Shown here: positions 1 through 5,637 of the stretch, one piece after another
Numbering within the stretch: position 1 is the stretch's first letter
How the letters are laid out: every line of letters starts with the position of its first letter
Sequence record: NC_011040.1
DNA length: 39,816 nucleotides
Source of the DNA: Escherichia phage BA14
Direction: 5' to 3' (one strand)
Translations under genes and position numbers: made by a program
The notes under the pieces: generated by a model
Told to the model about the DNA's origin: nothing
Seen by the model: only the letters and a program-made list of their open reading frames with translations
Database searches by the model: none

Positions 1-194
1 TCTCATAGTTCATACAAAGTGTTTACCCCCTATGGCCTCCTTCAGTTCCCCAAAGAGTGCCACCCCTTATGGTAACTTATGGTTTACTTAATGTCAATCA
101 TTATGTGAGACATTGGGTGAATCATTGGGATGACCACTAGATATAGTGTGTGGGAGACCTTATGACCACTATATGTAGTCCTCTCTGTGTCCCT
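1..194. repeat. Left direct terminal repeat (exact copy of 39623-39816)
   Basis: Bases 1-194 are identical to 39623-39816 when read from the sequence; T7-family genomes carry terminal direct repeats of this size. Confidence 0.95.
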
Positions 195-205
195 ATCTGT
201 AATTA

Positions 206-300
206 CCTTATGTTTCCTCTTAGGGTATAACTGAGAGTATCACCTTATGTCTATCCTTATGGCTGCCTATCCTTATGTTAACCTTCAGTCGGTGCCTTCA
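206..300. repeat. Array of CCTTATG/CTCTTAG/CCTTCAG heptamer repeats just inside the left terminal repeat
   Basis: CCTTATG at 206, 243, 255, 271; related CTCTTAG at 217 and CCTTCAG at 283 and 294; same heptamer also inside the terminal repeat (65, 158). Confidence 0.6.
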
Positions 301-352
301 GTCTATAGACCTAGCGTTACCACTATTAGACCAGCCTTAAAGACCATACAGC

Positions 353-375
353 TTATACGACTCACTATTGAGAAT
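353..375 (+). promoter_or_regulatory. Phage RNAP promoter, T7 phiOL-like (cttatACGACTCACTATTgagaa)
   Basis: Matches T7-type promoter core -13 to -1; downstream initiating region is GAGAA rather than GGGAGA, so probably weak. Confidence 0.55.
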
Positions 376-459
376 GTTGTTTATAGTCTTAATTACTATT
401 CCCTCCTTATAGGGATAACTTAAAGACTACTTAAAGACGACTTTTTGTTACTTTAAGTA

Positions 460-488
460 TTGACTCTGAGAAACAGCTATGAGACTAT
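460..488 (+). promoter_or_regulatory. Candidate host sigma70 early promoter (TTGACT-N17-GACTAT), A1-like
   Basis: Perfect -35-like TTGACT with 17-nt spacer to a -10-like hexamer; position corresponds to the T7 A1 region. Confidence 0.4.
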
Positions 489-594
489 AGCAACCGTTGA
501 GAGACACAACGCTACCAACCACTAGACAAGACCACGAGTTATCTAGTGAGGCTGAAGGGTCTCAAGTAGTCATCAACCAGACACACGAAAGTGG

Positions 595-623
595 TTGACT
601 CAACGAAAGCAATAACGTAGTAT
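595..623 (+). promoter_or_regulatory. Candidate host sigma70 early promoter (TTGACT-N17-TAGTAT)
   Basis: -35 TTGACT at 595-600, 17-nt spacer, -10 TAGTAT at 618-623. Confidence 0.45.
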
Positions 624-684
624 AGCAGTCGTCAACAACTGGTCGCCCTCTGAAACAACATGAGGTGTCACGGTGAGAAAGTAG

Positions 685-714
685 TTGACAAGCAGTAACG
701 ATAAGATGTAAGAT
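685..714 (+). promoter_or_regulatory. Candidate host sigma70 early promoter (TTGACA-N18-TAAGAT), A2-like
   Basis: Consensus -35 TTGACA at 685-690 and TAAGAT at 709-714; same hexamers as I recall for T7 A2. Confidence 0.5.
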
Positions 715-833
715 GTACGACATGCAGTAAGGGTGTAGGGATAGGAACCGAGAAACCTGCCCGTGACCCGCCAACGGATAAGGCACTAGCCGTGAGTCGA
801 ATTCGGTCACTCATCGCATAAAAGAATAACAGG

Positions 834-862
834 TTGACAGTCTCCTTTAAAAACTGTAAGCT
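834..862 (+). promoter_or_regulatory. Candidate host sigma70 early promoter (TTGACA-N17-TAAGCT), A3-like
   Basis: -35 TTGACA at 834-839, 17-nt spacer, -10-like TAAGCT at 857-862. Confidence 0.4.
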
Positions 863-988
863 GTACCGGAAACATACATAACGTTCTTGTGAGGTCACAC
901 ACTGAAAGTGACTCGGTGCTAACAAACCTGCACTTAAAGCTCTTTAACAATTTGGAATAGCACTCTTGAGATGGCGGCACTAGCGATT

Positions 989-1022
989 AACTCAAGGTGA
1001 CTCGAAAGAGAAGCCTTTATGA
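989..1022 (+). promoter_or_regulatory. Possible RNase III-type hairpin upstream of gene 0.3 (R0.3 position)
   Basis: aACTCAAGGTgactcgaaagagAAGCCTTt shares the AACTCAAGGT...GCCTT motif of the clearer hairpins at 6301, 6821 and 13571, but pairing is imperfect. Confidence 0.3.
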
Positions 1023-1049
1023 TAATCACTGCAACTGAGGAACCATCCC

Positions 1050-1508
1050 ATGATTCATACTAAAGAACAAGCTAACGTTTTCTATGTACTGGTAAGCGCA
1101 TTCCGTTCTAACCTCGACGATGAGGTCAACATGAGTCGCCACCGCCACATGGTTAACAACCTGCGCAACGCACCGGGTCTTTATGGTAGCGTTGAGTCTA
1201 CCGATTTAACTGGCTGTTACCGCGAAGCCATCTCAAGTGCACCGACTGAAGAGAAAACAATCCGTGTACGTTGTAAAGACAAGGCACAGGTTCTCAATGT
1301 CGCACGTCTGGCTTGTAACGAGTGGGAACAAGATTGCGTACTGGTCTATAAGTCACAGACTCACACGGCTGGCTTAGTGTACGCTAAAGGCATCGACGGG
1401 TACAAAGCTGAACGTCTGCACGGTAGCTTCCAGCGCATCCCTAAAGGTGCACCAATTCAAGGCTGCTTCACGGTTGACGAGTTCGGCAAATACTGGCAGG
1501 TAGCATAA
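1050..1508 (+). CDS. 0.3: S-adenosylmethionine-cleaving anti-restriction protein (T3 gene 0.3-type SAMase/SAM lyase)
   Basis: 152-aa ORF with RBS GAGG; sequence closely matches my recollection of T3 gp0.3 and is unrelated to T7 Ocr; first gene after the early promoters. Confidence 0.8.
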   Translation: MIHTKEQANVFYVLVSAFRSNLDDEVNMSRHRHMVNNLRNAPGLYGSVESTDLTGCYREAISSAPTEEKTIRVRCKDKAQVLNVARLACNEWEQDCVLVYKSQTHTAGLVYAKGIDGYKAERLHGSFQRIPKGAPIQGCFTVDEFGKYWQVA

Positions 1509-1509
1509 C

Positions 1510-1707
1510 ATGGTCGCACTCTTTGTAATCACAATGTACGCTCTGATTGGGGCGTACTTCCTAAGAGACTTCCGCAAGGGTCTCAAGGTACACAAGGCTA
1601 ACTTCTCGCACTTGAAGTATGGCTTTCTACCACGATTCACAGTCCGTGAACGCAACGGGCGCTTTAAGGCTAACAAGGTTGGTATCTTCTATGTTGCAAC
1701 ACATTAA
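1510..1707 (+). CDS. Small early membrane protein, hypothetical (gene 0.4-0.6 interval)
   Basis: 65-aa ORF beginning 2 nt after the gene 0.3 stop; N-terminal hydrophobic helix (VALFVITMYALIGAYFL) then a basic tail; weak RBS. Confidence 0.45.
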   Translation: MVALFVITMYALIGAYFLRDFRKGLKVHKANFSHLKYGFLPRFTVRERNGRFKANKVGIFYVATH

Positions 1708-1811
1708 ACGCAATATCGGCTTCTACATGGTCTTCGTTGTATGGCCTACGCTCTGTATTATCTTCATGAAATAACACTCTCACAATCTTCTCTCTTAAAG
1801 GACACAATCTA

Positions 1812-2912
1812 ATGAACTACACCGACATTCAGGCACGTCTGGCAATCATCAAGTCCCTCCCGATTAGCGAACTGGACAAGCGCCAGACTCTTCTGGTTGC
1901 ACTGGCTGCTGACATCGTGAACGGTGAGACAAGCGATGGCAACGACACTGAAGGCTCAAATGGCTTGGAGTATCAGGACTGGTGGAACACCTTGGGCGCT
2001 CTCATGCGTGATGCAGGTTTCCGCATGTTGGGTAATGGTCACTTCAGTGCGGCCTACTCGCACGAAATGTTACCGGGCCGAGTCATCAAGGTTGGCTTTA
2101 AGAAAGAGGATTCAGGCGCAGCATACACTGCATTCTGTAGGATGCACCAAGGCCGAGCGGGTATCCCTAACGTCTATCACGTAGCACGTCATGCAGGTTG
2201 CTATACGGTTGTTCTTGACAAGCTGGTAGCATGTGACCGCGATAATTATGACCATGAGGTATACGCTGACCTCGCACGTTACTTTGTGGAGTCGGATTGC
2301 CATGACGCAAGCGACTTTGCACCGGGTGACTACGAGTTCATTGAGACCTGCCAGCTTATCCGCAAGTTCTTCAAAGGGATTGCATCGTTTGACATGCACA
2401 GCGGGAACATTATGTTCTCTGAAGATGGCACACCATACATCACTGACCCGGTTAGCTTCTCACATGACCGTGAACGTGAGGACGGCTTCCCTCTGGACCC
2501 GGATGCACTGATTGCCGAGGTCGAGGCAATAGCTAACGAGCGCATGATTGAACGTTGTCGCAACCGCAAGGCCAAGCGTGACCCTAACGGAACCTTTCAG
2601 GTTAACCACAAGGCCGCAATGAAACGCCGCAAGCGCAACCGTAAGCTGCGTGCCAAACGTGGTGCCGAGGTTGCACAGCACTTTGTACAGCGTAGACATG
2701 AACAAAAGCAGGAACTAAGGGACGCTATGAGGGCGCAAGATTGGATGGGTGCGCACAACTGGCACAACATGTGGTTACACAACAACAATGCAGACGTAAT
2801 CATGATTGACAAGGTGAAAGCCTTTGAGTGGAAACAGGCAGAACGCATGGCTCTTATGCAATGCCGCTCACTTCCAATCGACAAGTTACTTGACGCACAA
2901 CTGCAAGGCTGA
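1812..2912 (+). CDS. 0.7: Serine/threonine protein kinase, host shutoff (gp0.7)
   Basis: 366 aa; conserved blocks GNGHFSAAYSH, RVIKVGFKKEDSGAAYTAFCRM, HSGNIMFS and YITDPVSFS match T7 gp0.7 as I recall it. Confidence 0.9.
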   Translation: MNYTDIQARLAIIKSLPISELDKRQTLLVALAADIVNGETSDGNDTEGSNGLEYQDWWNTLGALMRDAGFRMLGNGHFSAAYSHEMLPGRVIKVGFKKEDSGAAYTAFCRMHQGRAGIPNVYHVARHAGCYTVVLDKLVACDRDNYDHEVYADLARYFVESDCHDASDFAPGDYEFIETCQLIRKFFKGIASFDMHSGNIMFSEDGTPYITDPVSFSHDREREDGFPLDPDALIAEVEAIANERMIERCRNRKAKRDPNGTFQVNHKAAMKRRKRNRKLRAKRGAEVAQHFVQRRHEQKQELRDAMRAQDWMGAHNWHNMWLHNNNADVIMIDKVKAFEWKQAERMALMQCRSLPIDKLLDAQLQG

Positions 2913-2926
2913 TAAGGTGTATCTTC

Positions 2927-2951
2927 AAGGTCGGCACTGACTGCTGGCCTT
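2927..2951 (+). promoter_or_regulatory. RNase III-type hairpin upstream of gene 1 (R1 position)
   Basis: AAGGTCGGCA-ctgac-TGCTGGCCTT forms a 10-bp stem with G-U pairs; 35 nt upstream of the RNAP start. Confidence 0.5.
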
Positions 2952-2985
2952 TATAGATAAACTTTCTTAACAACGTGAGGCAACA

Positions 2986-5637
2986 ATGACTAACGTAATC
3001 AACGCACCAAAGAATGACTTCTCTGACATCGCTAATGCAATCCAGCCGTACAACATTCTGGCTGACCATTACGGTGCACAGCTTGCAGCTACGCAGCTTG
3101 AGTTGGAGCATGAAGCTCACACTGAGGGCGAGAAGCGTTTCCTTAAGGCGATGGAACGTCAAATCAAAGCGGGTGAGTTCGGTGATAACGCAGTGGCTAA
3201 ACCGCTCCTGTCATCCCTCGCACCAAAGTTCATCGAAGCGTGGAACACTTGGTTCACTGAAGTTGAAGCGAAGCGTGGCAAGCGTCCAGTGGCCTACAAT
3301 CTGGTACAGAAGGTTGCACCCGAAGCGGCTGCTTTCATCACACTTAAGGTCACACTCGCTTGCTTGACGAAAGAAGAGTTCACCAACCTGCAATCAGTCG
3401 CTACTAAGATTGGTCGTAGCATTGAAGATGAACTGCGTTTCGGTCGCATCCGTGACGAAGAAGCGAAGCACTTTAAGAACCACGTACAGGAGGCACTGAA
3501 CAAGCGCGTTGGTATCGTCTACAAGAAAGCATTCATGCAAGCCGTAGAAGGCAAGATGTTAGACGCTGGTCAACTGCAAACCAAGTGGACTACATGGACA
3601 CCTGAAGAATCAATTCACGTTGGTGTGCGCATGTTGGAACTGCTCATCGGGTCTACTGGTCTCGTTGAGTTACACCGACCGTTTGCTGGTAACGTTGAGA
3701 AGGATGGCGAGTACATTCAACTGACCGAACAATACGTTGACCTGTTATCTAAGCGTGCTGGTGCACTGGCTGCAATTGCTCCGATGTACCAACCATGTGT
3801 AGTTCCTCCGAAGCCTTGGACGAGTCCGGTCGGTGGTGGCTATTGGGCTGCTGGTCGCAAGCCTCTCTCTCTGGTTCGCACTGGTAGCAAGAAGGGACTT
3901 GAGCGTTACAACGATGTGTATATGCCTGAAGTTTACAAGGCGGTGAACATCGCACAGAATACTCCTTGGAAGATTAACAAGAAGGTTCTGGCAGTGGTCA
4001 ACGAGATTGTGAACTGGAAGCATTGCCCGGTTGACGATGTACCTGCTCTCGAACGTGGTGAACTGCCTATCAAACCTGAAGACATCGACACGAACGAAGC
4101 GGCTCTGAAAGCGTGGAAGAAAGCGGCCTCCGCAATCTATCGCAAAGAGAAAGCACGAGTTTCTCGCCGCATGAGCATGGAGTTCATGTTAGGTCAGGCC
4201 AATAAGTTCGCACAGTTCAAAGCTATCTGGTTCCCGATGAATATGGACTGGCGCGGTCGAGTGTATGCGGTCCCAATGTTTAACCCGCAAGGCAACGACA
4301 TGACCAAAGGCTTGCTGACGCTCGCTAAAGGTAAACCAATCGGTGTCGATGGGTACTACTGGCTGAAGATTCACGGTGCTAACACTGCTGGTGTGGACAA
4401 GGTGGACTTCGCTGAACGTATCAAGTTCATTGATGATAACCATGAGAACATCATGAGCGTTGCGGCTGACCCTATCGCTAACACTTGGTGGGCTGAACAA
4501 GATTCTCCGTTCTGCTTCCTCGCATTCTGCTTTGAGTATGCAGGAGTCCAGCACCACGGGATGAAATACAACTGCTCTCTTCCGCTGGCGTTTGATGGTA
4601 GCTGCTCCGGTATTCAGCACTTCTCCGCAATGCTTCGTGATGAAATTGGTGGTCGCGCTGTTAACTTACTGCCGAGCAAGGAAGTCCAAGACATCTACCG
4701 CATCGTAGCGGAACGTGTCAACGAGATTCTGAAGCAAGATGTAATCAATGGCACCGACAACGAAGTCGAAATCGTGACCAATAAGGACACTGGCGAAATC
4801 ACTGAGAAGCTCAAGCTGGGAACTAAGGAACTGGCTGGTCAATGGTTAGCATACGGTGTTACTCGTAAGGTGACTAAGCGTTCCGTTATGACCTTGGCGT
4901 ATGGTTCCAAAGAGTACGGCTTCCGTGACCAAGTGCTAGAGGATACCATTCAGCCAGCTATCGACGATGGCAAGGGCTTGATGTTCACTCAACCGAACCA
5001 AGCGGCTGGCTACATGGCTAAACTGATTTGGAACGCAGTAACGGTGACAGTGGTCGCAGCGGTTGAAGCAATGAACTGGCTGAAGTCTGCGGCTAAACTT
5101 CTGGCTGCTGAAGTAAAGGACAAGAAGACCAAAGAGGTTCTCCGTAAGCGCTGTGCGGTACATTGGGTTACTCCTGATGGCTTCCCGGTCTGGCAGGAAT
5201 ACAAGAAGCCAGTACAGACCCGCTTGAACCTGATGTTCTTAGGCCAGATTCGTCTACAGCCTACCGTGAACACCAACAAGGATAGCGGAATTGACGCACG
5301 TAAGCAGGAGTCAGGCATTGCACCTAACTTTGTCCACTCAATGGATGGTAGCCACCTCCGCATGACCGTGGTGCGCTCCTATGAGGTCTACGGTGTGGAA
5401 TCGTTCGCACTGATTCACGACTCCTTTGGTACTATCCCTGCTGATGCTGGCAACCTGTTCAAAGCAGTGCGTGAAACGATGGTCAACACTTACGAAGAGA
5501 ACGATGTACTTGCAGACTTCTATGAGCAATTTGCTGACCAGTTGCACGAATCACAGCTTGACAAGATGCCTGAGATGCCAGCTAAAGGTTCTCTGGACCT
5601 GCAAGAAATCCTGAAGTCAGACTTTGCGTTTGCCTAA
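2986..5637 (+). CDS. 1: Single-subunit DNA-directed RNA polymerase (gp1)
   Basis: 883 aa, near-collinear with T7 RNAP as I recall it (e.g. AIWFPMNMDWRGRVYAV, FDGSCSGIQHFSAML, specificity-loop region QPTVNTNKDSGIDARKQESG, C-terminal FAFA). Confidence 0.98.
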   Translation: MTNVINAPKNDFSDIANAIQPYNILADHYGAQLAATQLELEHEAHTEGEKRFLKAMERQIKAGEFGDNAVAKPLLSSLAPKFIEAWNTWFTEVEAKRGKRPVAYNLVQKVAPEAAAFITLKVTLACLTKEEFTNLQSVATKIGRSIEDELRFGRIRDEEAKHFKNHVQEALNKRVGIVYKKAFMQAVEGKMLDAGQLQTKWTTWTPEESIHVGVRMLELLIGSTGLVELHRPFAGNVEKDGEYIQLTEQYVDLLSKRAGALAAIAPMYQPCVVPPKPWTSPVGGGYWAAGRKPLSLVRTGSKKGLERYNDVYMPEVYKAVNIAQNTPWKINKKVLAVVNEIVNWKHCPVDDVPALERGELPIKPEDIDTNEAALKAWKKAASAIYRKEKARVSRRMSMEFMLGQANKFAQFKAIWFPMNMDWRGRVYAVPMFNPQGNDMTKGLLTLAKGKPIGVDGYYWLKIHGANTAGVDKVDFAERIKFIDDNHENIMSVAADPIANTWWAEQDSPFCFLAFCFEYAGVQHHGMKYNCSLPLAFDGSCSGIQHFSAMLRDEIGGRAVNLLPSKEVQDIYRIVAERVNEILKQDVINGTDNEVEIVTNKDTGEITEKLKLGTKELAGQWLAYGVTRKVTKRSVMTLAYGSKEYGFRDQVLEDTIQPAIDDGKGLMFTQPNQAAGYMAKLIWNAVTVTVVAAVEAMNWLKSAAKLLAAEVKDKKTKEVLRKRCAVHWVTPDGFPVWQEYKKPVQTRLNLMFLGQIRLQPTVNTNKDSGIDARKQESGIAPNFVHSMDGSHLRMTVVRSYEVYGVESFALIHDSFGTIPADAGNLFKAVRETMVNTYEENDVLADFYEQFADQLHESQLDKMPEMPAKGSLDLQEILKSDFAFA

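What the first reader, a model, noticed from the sequence alone, without database searches (positions are those of the whole stretch)
1510..1707. Early small membrane protein immediately after the anti-restriction gene
A 65-aa ORF with one N-terminal TM helix and a basic C-terminus begins 2 nt after gene 0.3. In T7 this interval encodes small early proteins including the FtsZ inhibitor gp0.4, which is unrelated in sequence as far as I can tell. An early membrane-targeted peptide is a candidate for host cell-division or envelope modulation.
Basis: partly seen in the sequence, partly recalled or inferred. Interest (0 to 1): 0.35.

Follow-up and report, generated by a model that had tools for sequence, protein, structure and literature searches.

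The report
T3-type phage early gene 0.6
The 65-codon reading frame is a real, strongly conserved early gene of T3/Berlin-like phages (known as gene 0.6 or 0.6A) that encodes a small membrane-anchored basic protein whose function nobody has yet determined, so the finding is correct but ordinary.

Summary
Window 1510-1707 is an intact 65-aa ORF starting one base after the stop of gene 0.3, with a hydrophobic helix at residues 2-18 and a very basic C-terminal part (12 K/R in 47 residues). It is not a chance ORF. It matches PHROG 2385 (E 6e-29), occurs in about 790 phage records, and shows dN/dS of 0.15 with 62 of 65 third codon positions variable.

It is the already annotated gene 0.6 of T3, called 0.6A in phiYeO3-12 and 0.6 in Kvp1, whose copy is identical. 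The window is a whole Berlinvirus genome. Its gene 0.3 is the T3-type SAM lyase, not Ocr.

The protein is unrelated to T7 gp0.4 and gp0.5. It shares only its last 13 residues with T7 gp0.6A, the MreB inhibitor. That tail is a conserved junction holding the start of a hypervariable downstream cassette.

AlphaFold predicts a long helix, a three-stranded sheet and a short helix. No solved structure resembles it. No function is published in the library searched.

My best reading is a membrane-tethered early accessory protein, with its C-terminus in the cytoplasm, that binds a host target at the inner membrane. The target is unknown. Novelty: already known. Interest: low.

The parts
1510..1707 (+). 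Gene 0.6 (T3 type), 65 aa plus stop
   Evidence: ORF. PHROG 2385 at E 5.7e-29. Identical to Kvp1 gp0.6. dN/dS 0.15.
1498..1501 (+). Shine-Dalgarno-like AGGT, 8 nt before the ATG and inside the end of gene 0.3
   Evidence: Read. The same 20 nt upstream are present in all Berlinvirus-type alleles, and AAGGT is present in the Klebsiella-phage alleles.
1513..1563 (+). Codons 2-18: hydrophobic transmembrane segment
   Evidence: Kyte-Doolittle mean 2.24. Part of AlphaFold helix 2-27. The sequence varies but stays hydrophobic, with Y10, I13 and F17 nearly invariant.
1564..1704 (+). Codons 19-65: basic, highly conserved soluble part (juxtamembrane helix to residue 27, strands 31-36, 40-46 and 52-57, helix 59-64)
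   Evidence: AlphaFold2 mean pLDDT 90.3. 12 K/R and pI 11.4. dN/dS 0.12 for codons 20-57 and 0.03 for codons 58-65.
1050..1508 (+). Gene 0.3, T3-type S-adenosylmethionine lyase (context; its stop abuts the gene 0.6 start)
   Evidence: PF23780 at E 7.8e-44. PHROG 2226.
1691..1774 (+). Overlapping 27-aa hydrophobic ORF in the +1 frame, started by an ATG 17 nt before the end of gene 0.6 (the cassette slot)
   Evidence: The same ORF is found in 285P, S523 and one metagenomic contig. In other relatives the same ATG starts different genes.
1812..2912 (+). Gene 0.7 protein kinase (context; downstream boundary of the small-gene interval)
   Evidence: PHROG 2828 at E 6e-179.
595..714 (+). Two sigma-70-type early promoters upstream (595-623 and 685-714)
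   Evidence: No phage-polymerase promoter lies between 353 and 5645, and no terminator-like site on the + strand in 1-3100 (the one site found is on the - strand, inside gene 0.7).

Best explanation
This is the T3-type gene 0.6, a class I (early) accessory gene of enterobacterial T7-like phages. Shown: it sits in the host-polymerase-transcribed left end. It is packed against the stop of the SAM-lyase gene 0.3, with its ribosome-binding site inside that gene. It is under strong purifying selection as a protein. Inferred from sequence and model: the product is a bitopic inner-membrane protein. Residues 2-18 span the membrane with the N-terminus outside. The basic part, residues 19-65, stays in the cytoplasm by the positive-inside rule. 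That part folds into a continuation of the helix, a three-stranded antiparallel sheet and a short C-terminal helix. One face of the long helix (Y10, I13, F17, D20, F21, G24, L25, H28) and almost the whole sheet are invariant. This points to a specific binding partner rather than a mere anchor. Speculative: it binds and modulates a host protein at the cytoplasmic face of the inner membrane that is conserved across Enterobacterales, as a dispensable host-takeover function. It occupies exactly the slot where T7 carries the unrelated gp0.6A, a reported MreB inhibitor, so the most specific guess is an analogous action on cell-wall elongation or cell shape. I give that sub-claim about 0.2. The confidence below is for the general statement of a membrane-tethered early effector acting on a host target.
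For: Identity: PHROG 2385 at E 5.7e-29, identical to Kvp1 gp0.6, and 63-69% identical to T3 gp0.6 and phiYeO3-12 gp0.6A. Early expression: sigma-70-type promoters at 595-714, no terminator-like site on the + strand in 1-3100, and no phage promoter between 353 and 5645. Real protein: dN/dS 0.15 overall, 0.12 in codons 20-57 and 0.03 in the last 8 codons, even though synonymous divergence there is 0.60. Membrane helix and charge asymmetry. TMHMM-predicted transmembrane domain in the AP5 homologue: PMC4283147. Fold: AlphaFold2 pLDDT 90.3, and the independent BFVD model of the phiYeO3-12 homologue superposes at TM 0.98. One conserved helix face: resultant 0.76, permutation p about 0.001. Fixed position between Ocr or SAM lyase and the 0.7 kinase in 78 relatives, never together with T7-type 0.6A. 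T7 Gp0.6 is cited as targeting MreB (PMC6965359; PMC5624674).
Against: There is no experimental datum on this family in the searched literature. Topology is only rule-based. The annotators of phage ETEP21B report contradictory predictions: Phobius gives a signal peptide at residues 1-17, and TMHMM gives N-in, C-out. Three of the five AlphaFold models scored only 62-65 pLDDT. There is no structural or sequence link to any protein of known function. Positional equivalence to T7 gp0.6A is a weak argument, because the interval is mosaic and holds many unrelated genes.
Confidence: 0.55

Rival explanations
1. Superinfection exclusion. The early membrane protein blocks DNA ejection or channel formation by a second T7-like phage at the inner membrane, as small early membrane proteins do in other phages (T4 Imm, HK97 gp15; from general knowledge).
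For: It is early, small and membrane-anchored. It is confined to one phage lineage that shares one ejection machinery, with only 11 clusters at 50% identity among 1.84 billion proteins. It is conserved across phages of many enterobacterial genera.
Against: There is no homology to any known exclusion protein. T7 itself lacks the protein. No supporting literature was found.
Confidence: 0.15
2. Counter-defence. The protein neutralises a membrane-associated host defence or abortive-infection effector, in line with its neighbours (SAM lyase or Ocr, 0.7 kinase) in an early anti-defence region.
For: It is immediately adjacent to, and probably translationally coupled with, the anti-restriction gene. 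In relatives the neighbour alternates between Ocr and SAM lyase while gp0.6 stays.
Against: Its very high conservation (dN/dS 0.12, many invariant residues) is unlike the fast turnover usual for anti-defence genes. There is no match to any described family.
Confidence: 0.15
3. It is the orthologue of T7 gp0.6A and therefore an MreB inhibitor by homology.
For: It has the same name in annotations and the same position before the 0.6B/0.65 reading frame. The last 13 residues are similar, 7 of 13 identical.
Against: BLASTP and hhalign align only those 13 residues, with hhalign probability 1.5%. The two belong to different PHROGs, 2385 and 8393. T7 gp0.6A has no hydrophobic helix. The rV5-like homologue of T7 gp0.6A lacks the shared tail, so the tail comes from the junction and not from the family.
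Confidence: 0.03
4. The ORF matters mainly as a translational leader, or as the upstream half of a +1 frameshift fusion ('0.6B', as proposed for phiYeO3-12). The protein itself would be unimportant.
For: The phiYeO3-12 record annotates a putative +1 frameshift product. A +1-frame ORF overlaps the 3' end here.
Against: Purifying selection acts on the whole protein in frame 0. The downstream frame has its own ATG and an AAGG motif, and it encodes unrelated proteins in different relatives or nothing at all. About 17 of 78 relatives have no downstream overlapping ORF yet keep gp0.6 intact.
Confidence: 0.04

Closest known systems
T3 gene 0.6 protein (NP_523298) / phiYeO3-12 gp0.6A (NP_052068) / Kvp1 gp0.6 (ACJ14545) = PHROG 2385
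   Same: Same family. Kvp1 is 100% identical, 285P is 94% identical, and T3 and phiYeO3-12 are 63-69% identical. They share the same length, N-terminal hydrophobic helix, conserved C-terminal motif PRFTVRxxNGRFKANKVGIFYVATH, and place in the early region.
   Different: Here the gene abuts gene 0.3 with one base between them. In T3 an RNase III site and a host promoter lie between the two, and in phiYeO3-12 gene 0.45 does. The downstream overlapping gene also differs.
T7 gp0.6A (PHROG 8393), reported inhibitor of MreB (Molshanski-Mor et al. 2014, as cited in PMC6965359 and PMC5624674)
   Same: It occupies the same slot of the early region, directly before the 0.6B/0.65 reading frame. It is a small early non-essential protein, and the last 13 residues are similar.
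   Different: The other 40 residues are unrelated. T7 gp0.6A has no membrane helix and belongs to a different PHROG. Whether the function is analogous is unknown.
T7 gp0.4 (FtsZ inhibitor) and T7 gp0.5 (small hydrophobic protein)
   Same: They are small proteins of the same early interval, and gp0.5 is also hydrophobic.
   Different: There is no sequence relation. Homologues of both co-occur with this gene in relatives, for example in L084.

Membership tests
T3-type gp0.6 / gp0.6A (PHROG 2385) | Significant full-length match to the family profile | tested here: met
   E 5.7e-29, residues 1-65 on profile positions 7-66 of 70. The distant Kayfunavirus member Vec13 gp07 hits the same PHROG.
T3-type gp0.6 / gp0.6A (PHROG 2385) | About 65 aa, with an N-terminal hydrophobic helix followed by the conserved RDFxKGLxVHKA ... 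PRFTVRxxNGRFKANKVGIFYxATH part | tested here: met
   Alignments of 31 and 121 members; Y10, G24, H28, A30, T44, R46, F52, K53, N55, K56 and F60 are invariant in all 121 sequences.
T3-type gp0.6 / gp0.6A (PHROG 2385) | Location in the early region between the anti-restriction gene (Ocr or SAM lyase) and the 0.7 kinase / RNA polymerase | tested here: met
   The window order is SAM lyase, gp0.6, 27-aa ORF, kinase, RNA polymerase. The same frame of genes is found in the 78 related loci.
T7 gp0.6A (PHROG 8393; MreB inhibitor) | Sequence homology over the body of the protein | tested here: not met
   Only 13 C-terminal residues align (BLASTP E 0.006 for a single comparison; hhalign probability 1.5%). 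The PHROGs differ.
T7 gp0.6A (PHROG 8393; MreB inhibitor) | Binds or inhibits MreB and changes cell shape | not testable with these tools
   This needs expression, microscopy and interaction assays.
T7 gp0.4 (FtsZ inhibitor) | Sequence homology | tested here: not met
   hhalign probability 0.06%. gp0.4 homologues are separate genes upstream of gp0.6 in many relatives.
T7 gp0.5 | Sequence homology | tested here: not met
   hhalign probability 0.4%.
Cleaved Sec signal peptide (secreted protein) | Positively charged n-region before the hydrophobic core and a small-x-small cleavage site after it | tested here: inconclusive
   There is no K/R before the core, and the core is followed by RDFRK, which argues for an uncleaved anchor with the C-terminus inside. 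The ETEP21B annotators report that Phobius calls residues 1-17 a signal peptide. No dedicated predictor was available here.

The most novel reading that the evidence does not exclude
The T3-type gp0.6 is a membrane-tethered inhibitor of a host inner-membrane-associated machine. The candidates are the MreB/RodZ elongation complex, by analogy of position with T7 gp0.6A, or a membrane-bound defence effector. It would act through the invariant face of its transmembrane and juxtamembrane helix and through its basic three-stranded sheet. That fold has no solved counterpart. This would give a new, widely conserved small-protein inhibitor, present in about 790 sequenced phages of Klebsiella, Escherichia, Salmonella, Yersinia and relatives.
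Probability: 0.2. Interest if true: 0.55.

Novelty: already known. Interest (0 to 1): 0.2.

Why it matters
As a sequence feature it adds nothing new, because the gene has been annotated in T3, phiYeO3-12 and hundreds of relatives for two decades. It still has some value as a target for experiment. It is one of the most conserved small early genes of enterobacterial T7-like phages, many of them therapy candidates against Klebsiella. It is under strong purifying selection. Its predicted fold has no solved counterpart, and no function is assigned. It sits where T7 carries a cytoskeleton inhibitor. Finding its host target could yield a new small-protein inhibitor of an inner-membrane process in Enterobacterales.

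Tried and rejected
- Pfam gave only a sub-threshold DUF3149 hit (13.9 bits against a cut-off of 23.2, on the hydrophobic helix), which I rejected as compositional.
- NCBIfam gave nothing.
- A profile search of PDB sequences gave nothing at E up to 10.
- Foldseek against PDB gave a best E of 0.69 (YkfF, TM 0.34), which is not meaningful.
- BFVD returned only uncharacterised members of the same phage family.
- The exhaustive HMMER search of 1.84 billion representatives found only 11 clusters, all the same family or its fragments, so no remote relatives exist to lean on.
- There is no paralogue in the window.
- Literature searches for gp0.6, gene 0.6, 0.6A, superinfection exclusion and toxic early proteins gave no functional data on the T3-type protein.
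- The phiYeO3-12 non-essential-genes paper and the T7 gp0.6-MreB paper are not held in the library.
It was repeated with permitted rows.
- Own error, corrected: I first placed the start of the overlapping 27-aa ORF at 1690. The true ATG is 1691-1693. As a result the query labelled 'orf27_win' was the frame-0 read-through. The presence of that segment in 285P, S523 and L019 was re-established in the right frame.
- I considered a holin-like or antiholin role and dropped it: the gene is early, far from the lysis genes, and has no similarity to any other window ORF.

Full report
**What the window is.** The 39.8-kb window is a complete genome of a T3/Berlin-like podovirus (Autographiviridae, Studiervirinae, genus Berlinvirus).
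- Its first 25 kb are 93-94% identical to Yersinia phage PYPS50, Enterobacter phage PZJ0206 and Escherichia phage 285P.
- The 1-kb stretch around the finding is 95.5% identical to 285P and 95.2% identical to vB_EcoP_S523.
- The gene before the finding (1050-1508) is the T3-type S-adenosylmethionine lyase (Pfam PF23780, E 7.8e-44), not the Ocr DNA mimic of T7.

**The observation.**
- It has ATG at 1510, TAA at 1705-1707, and encodes 65 aa.
- The stop of gene 0.3 (1506-1508) is separated from the start by one base. An AGGT lies 8 nt upstream, inside gene 0.3. The arrangement suggests translational coupling; that is inference.
- Residues 2-18 are the only strongly hydrophobic stretch (Kyte-Doolittle mean 2.24).
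- The remaining 47 residues carry 12 K/R against 2 D/E, with a pI of 11.4.

**Is it more than chance?** An ORF of 65 codons is not remarkable on its own, since one search lists dozens of similar size on both strands. The comparative evidence is decisive.
- The protein matches PHROG 2385 over its full length (E 5.7e-29).
- tblastn finds it in 790 of 50,697 phage records, 782 of them over at least 80% of the query. These are mostly phages of Klebsiella, Escherichia, Salmonella, Pectobacterium, Enterobacter, Yersinia, Citrobacter and Erwinia.
- The 5.8-billion-protein collection holds 179 clusters, nearly all 64-67 aa and all unnamed.
- Over 28 distinct 65-codon alleles, synonymous divergence is near saturation (pS 0.56) while pN is 0.14, giving dN/dS of 0.15. 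By region it is 0.30 in the membrane segment, 0.12 in codons 20-57 and 0.03 in the last eight codons.
- 62 of 65 third positions vary, against 27 of 65 second positions.

**What it is called.** The gene is annotated as gp0.6a in 285P and as gene 0.6 in Kvp1, where the protein is identical. It is gene 0.6 in T3 and 0.6A in phiYeO3-12. A paper on phage AP5 already lists a TMHMM-predicted transmembrane domain in its 67-aa gene 0.6 product, without a function (PMC4283147). So the feature is already known, and only its function is not.

**Expression class.**
- Sigma-70-type promoters lie at 595-623 and 685-714, and no terminator-like site follows on the coding strand within 1-3100; the only one found lies on the minus strand inside gene 0.7.
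- The phage-polymerase promoter consensus occurs nine times in the window, against 0 expected by chance. It is at 353 and then not again until 5645, after the RNA polymerase gene.
- The gene therefore belongs to the class I region read by the host polymerase. This is shown at the level of sequence signals; expression itself is not shown.

**Relation to the T7 small early proteins.**
- Profile comparisons find nothing with T7 gp0.4 (probability 0.06%) or gp0.5 (0.4%).
- With T7 gp0.6A only the last 13 residues align: KANKVGIFYVATH against KINKIGSGYDRTH. BLASTP gives E 0.006 for one comparison and hhalign gives probability 1.5%.
- T7 gp0.6A belongs to a different PHROG, 8393, and has no hydrophobic helix.
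- Its homologue in an rV5-like phage ends differently, NNRATGFKRWGG. The shared tail is therefore not a property of the T7 family.

**Why the tail is shared.** The DNA alignment and a survey of 78 related loci explain it.
- An ATG 17 nt before the end of gene 0.6, in the +1 frame, starts the next gene.
- In different relatives that next gene is a T7-0.6B-like protein, a T3-0.65-like protein, a 59-aa protein or a 77-aa protein.
- It can also be an endonuclease VII-type nuclease (PF02945, E 1.6e-25) or a Bro-N protein (PF02498, E 3.3e-10).
- In some relatives there is no downstream gene at all. In this window, 285P, S523 and one metagenomic contig it is a 27-aa hydrophobic peptide.
- The 3' end of gene 0.6 is thus a conserved junction in front of a hypervariable cassette slot. 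T7 gp0.6A looks like a different N-terminal module sitting on the same junction.
- The reported MreB-inhibiting activity of T7 Gp0.6 (cited in PMC6965359, and PMC5624674) therefore cannot be transferred by homology.

**Context.** In 78 IMG/VR loci the gene always lies between an anti-restriction gene and the 0.7 kinase or RNA polymerase.
- The anti-restriction gene is Ocr or SAM lyase, and one locus has both.
- The gene is accompanied by a changing set of small genes: homologues of 0.4, 0.45, 0.5 and 0.65.
- T7-type 0.6A never co-occurs with it, whereas gp0.4 homologues often do.
- The window has the most compact version: SAM lyase, gp0.6, the 27-aa ORF, then the kinase.

**Structure.**
- AlphaFold2 with a 45-sequence alignment gives mean pLDDT 90.3. 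Two of the five models are about 90 and three are 62-65.
- The model has a helix at 2-27, strands at 31-36, 40-46 and 52-57, and a helix at 59-64.
- The independent BFVD model of the phiYeO3-12 homologue superposes at TM 0.98.
- No solved structure resembles it: the best Foldseek E is 0.69, and there are no PDB sequence hits.
- An exhaustive HMMER search of 1.84 billion representatives finds only 11 clusters, all the same family or its fragments.
- In the 121-sequence alignment the membrane segment varies except for Y10 (121/121), I13 (117) and F17 (120). Together with D20, F21, G24, L25 and H28 these fall on one face of the helix, with resultant 0.76 and permutation p about 0.001.
- The sheet region is almost invariant.

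**Mechanism.**
- Shown: this is a real early-region gene for a conserved small protein with one hydrophobic helix and a basic, probably folded C-terminal part.
- Inferred: it inserts in the inner membrane with the N-terminus out and the C-terminus in. This follows the positive-inside rule, with 0 K/R before the helix and 5 in the 15 residues after it. Third-party predictions noted in the ETEP21B record disagree with one another.
- Inferred: the invariant helix face and sheet form a binding surface for a partner.
- Speculative: the partner is a host protein at the cytoplasmic face of the membrane that is conserved among Enterobacterales.
- Three functions fit the data. The first is modulation of cell-wall elongation or shape, by analogy of position with T7 gp0.6A; I prefer this, at about 0.2. 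The second is exclusion of superinfecting phage (0.15). The third is neutralisation of a membrane-bound defence (0.15).
- The idea that the ORF is only a leader, or half of a frameshift fusion, is unlikely given selection on the whole protein and its retention where no downstream ORF overlaps.

**Verdict.** The gene is already known as T3-type gene 0.6 and has no known function. Interest is low (0.2). If a host target were found, interest would be moderate.

Noticed in passing
window 1691-1774 (+), overlapping the end of gene 0.6: A 27-aa hydrophobic ORF (MLQHIKRNIGFYMVFVVWPTLCIIFMK) starts at an ATG in the +1 frame 17 nt before the gene 0.6 stop, with AAGG at 1675-1678. It is also present in 285P (I9V), S523 (I9F) and one metagenomic contig, L019. 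It matches no family.
   Followed up: partly
window 1680-1811, and loci L009-L086 at the end of their gp0.6 genes: The same embedded ATG starts a different gene in different relatives. These include a T7-0.6B-like protein, a T3-0.65-like protein, 59-aa and 77-aa proteins, an endonuclease VII-type nuclease and a Bro-N protein. All begin M[LS]Q[RH][TI] because they overlap the gp0.6 C-terminus. The gp0.6 3' end is thus a fixed junction before a hypervariable cassette slot.
   Followed up: partly
L004 (T7) 837-998 compared with window 1666-1707: T7 gp0.6A shares only its last 13 codons with the T3-type gene. Its rV5-like homologue JLBYU50_215 lacks that tail. T7 0.6A therefore looks chimeric: a foreign N-terminal module on the ancestral junction. 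Kvp1 gp0.62 aligns first with T7's +1 frame and then with T7's frame 0. This suggests the T7 '0.6B' reading frame carries an internal frameshift relative to relatives.
   Followed up: partly
window 1050-1508, and loci L015-L084: The gene 0.3 position holds either a SAM lyase or an Ocr homologue in different relatives, and one locus (L016) carries both in tandem.
   Followed up: no
window 353-373 and eight further sites (5645, 6796, 18158, 20748, 21740, 26217, 33556, 39073): The phage promoters resemble the T7 consensus (TAATACGACTCACTAT) rather than the T3 one, but are followed by TGAGA/TGGGA. There are nine matches against 0 expected by chance.
   Followed up: no
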